Assembly (NCBI GenBank): GCA_012490745.1
Contig: GCA_012490745.1_3925.1
Reading direction: 5' to 3' (one strand)
Length of the DNA: 64,000 nucleotides
Origin: a phage
Numbering within the stretch: the first letter of the stretch is position 1; each line of letters opens with the position of its first letter. The position numbers were made by a program, and so were the translations under genes. Below the pieces are notes generated by a model. It was not told where the DNA came from, made no database searches, and saw nothing but the letters and a program-made list of their open reading frames with translations. Positions 58,795-59,435 of this stretch are shown here, in pieces.

Positions 58795-59193
58795 ATGAAA
58801 ACAGAATCTAGAGTAATTAATGGTAAGAAAGTAAATATCGTTCTGCTTGGGGCAAGAGATGGTATTAAGATGTCTATGAAGTTGGGTAAAATTGTTGTTC
58901 CAACCTTTGCACAGATGCTATCAAGTCTGACTGACAAGGGTAAGAAGGAAGCTCCAATGGTTCCATTTAAAGAGCTTGTTGAAGCTTGTTTTGACAGAAT
59001 TGAAGAAATTAACCTTGAAGAGATGGCTACCTTATTATTTCAAGGGGCAACTGTTGATGACTTCCCACTTAATATTGATACATACTTCCAAGCAAACTAT
59101 GGTGAATTTATTGATTACTTAGCATTTGCGCTGGAGGCAAACTTCGGAAGTTTTTTCGAAGCAAGCATTTTCAAAAGCCTAACTTCTCAGTAA
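58795..59193 (+). CDS. tail assembly chaperone (G-like)
   Basis: 132 aa directly upstream of tape measure; contains slippery heptamer near its 3' end. Confidence 0.6.
   Translation: MKTESRVINGKKVNIVLLGARDGIKMSMKLGKIVVPTFAQMLSSLTDKGKKEAPMVPFKELVEACFDRIEEINLEEMATLLFQGATVDDFPLNIDTYFQANYGEFIDYLAFALEANFGSFFEASIFKSLTSQ
59151..59157 (+). other. programmed -1 ribosomal frameshift site (T_TTT_TTC)
   Basis: X_XXY_YYZ heptamer in frame with the chaperone ORF; the -1 frame is open from here into ORF 59196-59435. Confidence 0.5.
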
Positions 59194-59195
59194 AC

Positions 59196-59434
59196 ATGGG
59201 TAACACTCTACAGACACCACTAACTGATGCTGCTGTAGAGGCAACCTATGAAGAAGCAGACGAGATGAAATTTGTGCTTGCTATTTATGGTATGGAAGGG
59301 TGTAAAGAAACACTTGACCAACTCTTTGCTATGACATTCTCTGATTTATTATCATTGAGACAATTTCTTGAAATTCAGAGGTCGTATAAAGAGGAAATTG
59401 CTTACAACGAACTTAGAAGAGCAGGAAAAATGTA

Positions 59435-59435
<1 letters not shown>
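59196..59435 (+). CDS. tail assembly chaperone C-terminal extension (GT-like, expressed by frameshift)
   Basis: 79-aa ORF in the -1 frame relative to 58795-59193, no stop between slippery site and this ORF. Confidence 0.5.

What the first reader, a model, noticed from the sequence alone, without database searches (positions are those of the whole stretch)
59151..59435. Programmed -1 frameshift linking the two tail-assembly-chaperone ORFs
The heptamer T_TTT_TTC sits 36 nt before the stop of ORF 58795-59193, and the -1 frame is open from the heptamer through ORF 59196-59435. This is the conserved G/GT-type arrangement upstream of tape-measure genes, so the true products are a short chaperone and a longer frameshift fusion.
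Basis: partly seen in the sequence, partly recalled or inferred. Interest (0 to 1): 0.45.

Follow-up and report, generated by a model that had tools for sequence, protein, structure and literature searches.

The report
Known tail-chaperone frameshift site, Felix O1-like phage
This is the expected ribosome-slipping site that lets a Felix O1-like phage make a short and a long tail-assembly chaperone from one gene; the sequence evidence is strong, but it is already annotated and published for this phage family.

Summary
T_TTT_TTC lies at 59151-59157 in the X_XXY_YYZ register of ORF 58795-59193. The -1 frame is open from 59115 to 59435.

The window is a Felixounavirus (99% identical to phages KhF3 and skuden). 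The two ORFs lie between the tail tube gene and the tape measure gene. ORF1 belongs to Pfam PF21822, a tail assembly chaperone family.

Comparative evidence supports a programmed -1 shift:
- All 80 related loci checked, down to about 23% protein identity and from 35 to 65% GC, keep T_TTT_TTY at this spot.
- In several lineages the -1 frame opens at or within 3 nt of the heptamer.
- Most lineages have no start codon for the downstream domain.
- Synonymous variation collapses over the overlap.

A Shine-Dalgarno-like GGAGG lies 13 nt upstream and is kept in 28 of 34 lineages. No downstream RNA structure is supported.

Predicted products are a 132-aa chaperone and a 213-aa fusion.

None of this is new. 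GenBank records for phages Michonne and Meda carry the joined CDS. Genome announcements for Moogle and Mijalis mention the frameshift. A 2025 paper reports the conserved GTTTTT motif across 231 Andersonviridae. I found no experimental proof in the library searched. Interest is low.

The parts
58795..59193 (+). ORF1, the short tail assembly chaperone (G-like, 132 aa). It is preceded by AAGGAA at 58784-58789.
   Evidence: PF21822 Phage_TAC_15, E 1.7e-19. phrog_1613 tail assembly chaperone, E 2.9e-48. It lies between the tube gene (58275-58721) and the tape measure gene.
59133..59137 (+). Internal Shine-Dalgarno-like GGAGG, 13 nt upstream of the heptamer. It is the inferred 5' stimulator of the -1 shift.
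   Evidence: Read from the sequence. An SD-like core starts 13-19 nt upstream of the heptamer in 28 of 34 lineage representatives, against 4.7% of control positions. The Glu codon there is GAG in 26 of 30 cases against 12.4 expected. The spacing lies within the 9-14 nt reported for -1 stimulation (PMC5009743). Its function is inferred, not shown.
59151..59157 (+). Slippery heptamer T_TTT_TTC in the X_XXY_YYZ register of ORF1 (codons S119 F120 F121).
   Evidence: Conserved as T_TTT_TTC or T_TTT_TTT in all related loci checked. The codon before it always ends in T (AGT, TCT or ACT), even where Ser is replaced by Thr.
59140..59180 (+). Block of near-invariant nucleotides around and after the heptamer, where the two reading frames overlap.
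   Evidence: This is the only stretch of the query that blastn matches in Erwinia Kolesnikvirus phages, at 92.7% identity. The identical-codon fraction at identical residues is 0.93 in codons 118-130 against 0.62 for the whole gene. See also the alignment.
59157..59435 (+). -1 frame continuation (T-like part, 92 codons plus stop). The annotated ORF2 (59196-59435) is its distal 79 codons.
   Evidence: Translation. phrog_4963 tail assembly chaperone, E 2.8e-55. The domain is homologous across all 34 lineages. The predicted fusion joins 58795-59157 to 59157-59435 and is 213 aa.
59435..61663 (+). Tape measure protein gene. Its ATG overlaps the TAA of the -1 ORF within ATGTAATG.
   Evidence: PF20155 TMP_3, E 2e-17. 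phrog_4036, E 0. Sequence.

Best explanation
This is a programmed -1 ribosomal frameshift in the tail assembly chaperone gene of a Felix O1-like myophage.

- Most ribosomes translate ORF1 to its stop at 59193 and make a 132-aa chaperone.
- A minority slip. With tRNA-Phe on UUU in the P site and on UUC in the A site, both tRNAs re-pair one base back on U_UUU_UUC (59151-59157).
- Those ribosomes continue in the -1 frame (CGA AGC AAG ...) to the TAA at 59433-59435. The result is a 213-aa fusion: residues 1-121 of ORF1 plus a 92-residue C-terminal domain.
- The slip is probably stimulated by pairing of 16S rRNA with the internal GGAGG at 59133-59137, 13 nt upstream, as in E. coli dnaX. No downstream RNA structure appears to be involved in this lineage.
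- By analogy with lambda gpG/gpGT, both products would bind the tape measure protein. The extra domain of the fusion would recruit the tube protein, and neither product would end up in the virion.

Shown here: the sequence anatomy, its conservation, and the lack of independent starts in relatives.
Inferred: that the slip is ribosomal, the role of the SD-like sequence, the ratio of products, and the assembly function.
For: - Register and open frame.
- Uniqueness in the window: 1 of 73 in-frame heptamers.
- Family and gene order.
- The heptamer is kept in all 80 loci checked, from 100% to about 23% protein identity.
- Codon choice: in 34 lineage representatives (GC 0.35-0.65) the site is always NNT TTT TTY. 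Background TTT/Phe is as low as 0.09 and NNT/Ser as low as 0.08. The summed log10 P is about -30 if lineages are treated as independent. The neighbouring Phe codon of the NF motif varies freely.
- The -1 frame opens at the first base of the heptamer in L057 and L080, and 3 nt before it in L045 and L004. This pins the shift site.
- The -1 frame runs 34-93 codons past the ORF1 stop in all 75 IMG/VR loci, whereas the +1 frame is mostly much shorter (1-39 codons).
- The downstream domain is homologous in all lineages. In most (phiEa21-4, L034, L037 and nearly all distant ones) it has no ATG, GTG or TTG near its N-terminus.
- Synonymous-site conservation is 0.93 in the overlap against 0.62 overall.
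- blastn finds only this island in Erwinia phages.
- UUY heptamers with all-pyrimidine X and Z are among the frameshift-prone classes in E. coli (PMC4066793).
- Independent annotation: a joined CDS marked 'ribosomal slippage (47149)' in Michonne, which falls inside its heptamer (L002 951-957), and a joined CDS in the Felixounavirus Meda.
- Literature.
Against: - There is no experimental evidence for the fusion protein in this family, either here or in the papers found.
- In the window ORF2 has its own ATG (59196), 2 nt after the ORF1 stop, so some independent translation cannot be excluded.
- No downstream stimulatory structure is supported. The 60 nt after the heptamer fold at -3.4 kcal/mol with z +1.2. 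The Ounavirinae consensus fold is -5.2 kcal/mol with a positive covariation term.
- The SD-like sequence is absent in 6 of 34 lineages, including Kolesnikvirus and the Yersinia phage. Its conservation is partly explained by conserved Glu-Ala/Val residues.
- Lineages are not independent, and one of the two peptide patterns used to collect loci required SFF at the protein level.
- A ribosomal slip and the insertion of one U by RNA polymerase would give the same protein.
Confidence: 0.88

Rival explanations
1. Transcriptional slippage. RNA polymerase inserts one extra U on the T6 tract, perhaps helped by the terminator-like hairpin at 59131-59147 just upstream. Normal translation of the edited mRNA then gives the same fusion protein.
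For: The site is a homopolymeric T run of 6 nt, and 6-8 nt in relatives. The terminator scan flags a 6-pair hairpin followed by the T run at 59131-59156. The protein product would be identical to the frameshift product. Hairpin-dependent slippage on short motifs is known for an IS element (Penno et al. 2015, from my own knowledge).
Confidence: 0.05
2. There is no recoding. ORF2 (59196-59435) is a separate 79-aa protein started at its own ATG by termination-reinitiation 2 nt after the ORF1 stop, and the heptamer is incidental.
For: An ATG lies at 59196, 2 nt after the TAA. Most GenBank records annotate two separate CDS. PHROG 4963 models a 79-aa protein.
Against: There is no SD-like sequence 4-16 nt upstream of that ATG. 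The ATG is not conserved in position: it lies 5 codons later in Mooglevirus and is absent in phiEa21-4, L034 and almost all distant lineages. The -1 peptide R-S/G-K-H-F-Q-K-P upstream of the ATG is conserved across genera. Synonymous sites of the last 12 ORF1 codons are nearly frozen. The heptamer is invariant against codon bias. Reinitiation could still occur in addition to the frameshift.
Confidence: 0.04
3. A chance juxtaposition or a sequencing or assembly indel in a T homopolymer splits what is really a single gene.
For: Homopolymer runs are prone to indel errors. A single base insertion would fuse the two ORFs.
Against: The same two-frame arrangement, with T6 or T7 and a zero-frame stop downstream, recurs in about 300 independently sequenced phage genomes and in 75 metagenomic loci. 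The zero-frame C-terminus (EASIFKSLTSQ) is itself conserved.
Confidence: 0.01

Closest known systems
Lambda gpG/gpGT-type tail assembly chaperone frameshift, conserved in long-tailed dsDNA phages (Xu, Hendrix and Duda 2004, cited; described in PMC5009743)
   Same: Two overlapping ORFs lie directly upstream of the tape measure gene, with the second in the -1 frame. [quoted passage not shown] The products are a short form and a C-terminally extended form.
   Different: The heptamer is U_UUU_UUC rather than lambda's G_GGA_AAG (from my own knowledge). The phage has a contractile tail. The chaperone belongs to a different sequence family (PF21822) with no detectable sequence match to any solved structure.
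Andersonviridae/Vandenendeviridae TAC-N/TAC-NC locus with a conserved GTTTTT motif (PMC12846349, Viruses 2025; Michonne and Meda GenBank joins; Moogle and Mijalis announcements)
   Same: It is the same gene family, the same site and the same proposed -1 shift. Felixounavirus is a genus of Andersonviridae, so the window is a direct member of the set already described.
   Different: Nothing essential differs. This analysis adds four points: the strict X_XXY_YYZ register with codon-bias statistics, lineages whose -1 frame opens at the heptamer, the conserved upstream SD-like sequence, and the absence of a downstream structure in Ounavirinae.
E. coli dnaX -1 frameshift cassette
   Same: An internal Shine-Dalgarno-like sequence lies upstream of the heptamer at a spacing (13 nt) within the 9-14 nt range that stimulates -1 shifts.
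   Different: dnaX uses A_AAA_AAG and also a downstream stem-loop. Here the heptamer is U_UUU_UUC and no downstream structure is supported. In dnaX the shifted product is the shorter one.
Phage P2 E/E+E' tail chaperone frameshift (myovirus; T_TTT_TTG, from my own knowledge)
   Same: Both are contractile-tailed phages with a poly-U type heptamer, a -1 shift and a position upstream of the tape measure gene.
   Different: The protein family is different and the last heptamer base differs (G in P2, C here).

Membership tests
G/GT-type tail assembly chaperone programmed -1 frameshift | Two ORFs located between the major tail (tube) gene and the tape measure gene | tested here: met
   Tube gene 58275-58721 (PF11681, phrog_280), ORF1 58795-59193, ORF2 59196-59435, tape measure gene 59435-61663 (PF20155, phrog_4036).
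G/GT-type tail assembly chaperone programmed -1 frameshift | The second ORF is in the -1 frame relative to the first and overlaps its 3' end as an open frame | tested here: met
   The -1 frame is open 59115-59435 and ORF1 stops at 59193. The same holds in all 75 IMG/VR loci.
G/GT-type tail assembly chaperone programmed -1 frameshift | A slippery X_XXY_YYZ heptamer in the correct register inside the overlap | tested here: met
   T_TTT_TTC at 59151-59157 is the only such heptamer in the overlap.
G/GT-type tail assembly chaperone programmed -1 frameshift | The slippery site and two-frame layout are conserved among diverged relatives beyond what protein coding requires | tested here: met
   80 of 80 loci keep the site. 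Codon-bias test in 34 lineages. Synonymous conservation is 0.93 in the overlap against 0.62 overall.
G/GT-type tail assembly chaperone programmed -1 frameshift | The downstream ORF lacks its own translation initiation signals | tested here: inconclusive
   In the window an ATG at 59196 exists but has no SD-like sequence. In most other lineages there is no start codon near the N-terminus of the domain.
G/GT-type tail assembly chaperone programmed -1 frameshift | The fusion protein is made at a low fixed ratio and is required for tail assembly | not testable with these tools
   This needs proteomics, reporter assays or genetics. No experimental report for this family was found.
Pfam PF21822 (Phage_TAC_15) tail assembly chaperone | Score above the Pfam gathering threshold over the full domain | tested here: met
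   71 bits against a cutoff of 22; residues 9-124 match profile positions 1-124 of 127.
dnaX-type stimulated -1 frameshift | SD-like sequence 9-14 nt 5' of the heptamer | tested here: met
   GGAGG at 59133-59137 with a 13-nt spacer. Present in 28 of 34 lineages. Spacing rule.
dnaX-type stimulated -1 frameshift | A stable stem-loop a few nucleotides 3' of the heptamer | tested here: not met
   The 60 nt downstream fold at -3.4 kcal/mol with z +1.2. There is no supported consensus structure in Ounavirinae.
Programmed transcriptional slippage | A homopolymer run of about 9 or more A/T, or a short run with a conserved adjacent nascent-RNA hairpin | tested here: not met
   The run is 6 nt, and 6-8 nt in relatives. 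The upstream hairpin has no covariation support.

The most novel reading that the evidence does not exclude
The fusion might not arise on the ribosome at all. RNA polymerase could insert one U on the T6 tract, helped by the terminator-like hairpin at 59131-59147. This would be a hairpin-assisted transcriptional slippage cassette conserved across a large family of phage tail chaperones. A milder alternative is more likely but less novel: U6Y plus an upstream SD-like sequence forms a structure-independent ribosomal shift cassette that works in hosts from 35 to 65% GC.
Probability: 0.05. Interest if true: 0.5.

Novelty: already known. Interest (0 to 1): 0.12.

Why it matters
The practical value is correct annotation. 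Most of the roughly 300 public Felix O1-like genomes list ORF2 as a separate small protein, and ORF1 is sometimes mislabelled as a head closure or tape measure protein. The real products are most likely a 132-aa chaperone and a 213-aa fusion. The family-wide invariance of U_UUU_UUY, with an SD-like sequence at a fixed distance, makes it a tidy natural test set for structure-independent -1 frameshifting. The phenomenon and this instance are already in the literature.

Tried and rejected
- **Downstream stimulatory hairpin or pseudoknot.** Folding 60-120 nt after the heptamer gave no energy beyond shuffles for the first 60 nt. The consensus fold of 9 Ounavirinae sequences had no covariation support. 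An 8-bp stem at 59206-59213 / 59233-59240 lies 49 nt downstream and is not conserved in Mooglevirus or Kolesnikvirus. Rejected as a stimulator.
- **Upstream terminator-like hairpin at 59131-59147 as a conserved element.** Pair counts equal the shuffled controls. Rejected.
- **Independent initiation of ORF2.** See the rival explanations. Rejected as the main route.
- **Quantitative efficiency of U_UUU_UUC.** Only class-level statements were in the text of PMC4066793.
- **Vladimirov et al. 2022 on T4-like chaperones.** The paper is not in the library.

Full report
**What is in the sequence.**
The window is a Felix O1-like myophage. The stretch 58275-59700 is 99.2% identical to phages KhF3 and skuden and matches 295 phage records, mostly Felixounavirus. 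Felixounavirus belongs to Ounavirinae in the family Andersonviridae.

The local gene order is as follows:

| Feature | Coordinates | Evidence |
|---|---|---|
| Sheath | 56907-58259 | DUF3383, phrog_205 |
| Tube | 58275-58721 | PF11681, phrog_280 |
| Intrinsic terminator | 58732-58771 | |
| ORF1 | 58795-59193 | PF21822 tail assembly chaperone, E 1.7e-19 |
| ORF2 | 59196-59435 | phrog_4963 |
| Tape measure gene | 59435-61663 | PF20155, phrog_4036 |

TTTTTTC lies at 59151-59157. ORF1 reads AGT TTT TTC there, so the heptamer is T_TTT_TTC in the X_XXY_YYZ register. The -1 frame is open from 59115 to the TAA at 59433-59435. A shift at the heptamer gives a 213-aa fusion: 121 residues of ORF1 plus 92 residues that begin RSKHFQKPNFSVNMGNT....

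**Is it more than chance?**
All ORFs of at least 100 aa in the window hold 73 in-frame X_XXY_YYZ heptamers. Only this one is followed by a -1 frame that runs at least 20 codons past the zero-frame stop. It runs 92 codons, against a median of 4.

**Comparative evidence.**
I collected 5 annotated relatives from four genus-level lineages of Ounavirinae. I also collected 75 IMG/VR loci that encode relatives of ORF1, from 100% down to about 23% identity.

- *Frames.* In all 75 IMG/VR loci the -1 frame runs 34-93 codons past the ORF1 stop. The +1 frame is mostly much shorter (1-39 codons).
- *Heptamer.* All 80 loci carry T_TTT_TTC or T_TTT_TTT at the conserved NF(G/S)SFF motif.
- *Codon bias.* In 34 lineage representatives spanning 35-65% GC the three codons are always NNT TTT TTY.
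  - The first codon is AGT, TCT or ACT, so its third-position T survives a Ser-to-Thr change.
  - The neighbouring Phe codon of the NF motif switches freely between TTC and TTT.
  - In the GC-rich lineages background TTT/Phe is 0.09-0.37 and NNT/Ser is 0.08-0.31.
  - Treating lineages as independent, the summed log10 probability is about -30.
- *Position of the shift.* In L057 and L080 the -1 frame opens at the first base of the heptamer. In L045 and the Yersinia phage it opens 3 nt before it. The heptamer is the only shared feature of the permissible shift windows.
- *Downstream domain.* The -1 ORF encodes a domain that aligns across all lineages. In most of them it has no ATG, GTG or TTG near its N-terminus. 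In phiEa21-4 the region was left unannotated for that reason.
- *Synonymous sites.* Among Ounavirinae pairs below 90% nucleotide identity, the fraction of identical codons at identical residues is 0.62 overall. It is 0.93 in codons 118-130, from the heptamer onward.
- *Nucleotide island.* blastn against Erwinia phages finds only 59140-59180, at 92.7% identity.

Two caveats apply. The lineages are phylogenetically related. One of the two peptide patterns used to find the loci required SFF at the protein level, though not any particular codons.

**Stimulators.**
No downstream structure is supported in this lineage.
- The 60 nt after the heptamer fold at -3.4 kcal/mol, with z +1.2.
- The consensus fold of nine Ounavirinae sequences has an energy of -5.2 kcal/mol, with a covariation term that counts against the structure.

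Upstream there is a GGAGG at 59133-59137, 13 nt before the heptamer.
- An SD-like core occurs at this distance in 28 of 34 lineages, against 4.7% of control positions.
- The Glu codon supplying it is GAG in 26 of 30 cases, against 12.4 expected from local codon usage.
- The review by Atkins et al. gives 9-14 nt as the spacing at which internal SD sequences stimulate -1 shifts, as in dnaX.

I therefore infer an SD-type 5' stimulator. This is not shown, and part of the conservation follows from conserved Glu-Ala/Val residues.

The terminator scan also flagged a weak hairpin at 59131-59147 followed by the T run. Across 34 lineages its pairing is no better than shuffled controls.

**Mechanism and rivals.**
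The best explanation is tandem -1 slippage of two tRNA-Phe on U_UUU_UUC, giving a 132-aa and a 213-aa product. All-pyrimidine heptamers with a UUY A-site codon belong to the frameshift-prone classes in E. coli.

- *Transcriptional slippage* would give the same protein. The run is only 6 T, whereas about 9 is typical for efficient slippage, and the hairpin lacks support. I put this at about 5%.
- *Independent reinitiation at the ATG at 59196* is possible as an extra route in Felixounavirus. It cannot be the ancestral or main route, for three reasons: the ATG has no SD-like sequence, it is not conserved in position, and the conserved -1 peptide begins upstream of it.
- *A homopolymer sequencing error* is excluded by recurrence in hundreds of independent genomes.

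**Comparison with what is known.**
This is the G/GT-type arrangement of long-tailed phages. For this family it is already annotated and published.
- GenBank NC_028247 (Michonne) has a joined CDS noted 'ribosomal slippage (47149)'. That position falls inside its heptamer.
- MH586731 (Meda, a Felixounavirus) has a 'frameshift product' joined CDS.
- The Moogle and Mijalis announcements mention the frameshift.
- A 2025 paper on Pseudomonas phage Adele reports an invariant GTTTTT motif and an uninterrupted -1 frame in Vandenendeviridae. It reports the same motif in 231 Andersonviridae.

Most other records still list two separate CDS. I found no experimental demonstration in the library searched.

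**Verdict.**
The feature is already known, so interest is low. The only modest additions here are the codon-bias statistics, the pinning of the site by frame openings, the conserved SD-like sequence, and the absence of a 3' structure in Ounavirinae.

Noticed in passing
window 58732-58771 (+): A strong intrinsic terminator (13-pair stem, then TTTTGTTT) lies between the tube gene and the chaperone gene. It is annotated as a terminator in Michonne and Meda. It would lower transcription of the chaperone and tape measure genes relative to sheath and tube.
   Followed up: partly
window 59430-59437 (+): The stop of the -1 ORF and the start of the tape measure gene overlap within ATGTAATG, with AGGA 8 nt upstream. 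This suggests translational coupling of the tape measure protein to the upstream reading frames. The layout is conserved in Felixounavirus, Mooglevirus and the Yersinia phage.
   Followed up: partly
L060, L061, L068, L076 (IMG/VR, GC about 63%), 7 nt after the heptamer: GC-rich distant relatives carry a 9-bp stem-loop (CCGCGAGCG ... CGCTCGCGG) starting 7 nt after T_TTT_TTC, with z -2.5 to -3.8. Different lineages of the same family therefore seem to use different stimulators: a 3' hairpin in some and a 5' SD-like sequence in others.
   Followed up: partly
[not shown]
   Followed up: no
window 59206-59213 with 59233-59240 (+): A perfect 8-bp stem (CTCTACAG/CTGTAGAG) lies inside ORF2, 49 nt after the heptamer. 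It dominates the 90-nt fold but is not conserved in other genera.
   Followed up: partly
public records matched: There are annotation oddities among relatives. ORF1 homologues are variously named head closure protein, Hc1 or tape-measure protein. A record named Campylobacter phage A132 (MG065664) is 98.5% identical to this Felix O1-like sequence, which suggests a mislabelled or contaminated record.
   Followed up: no
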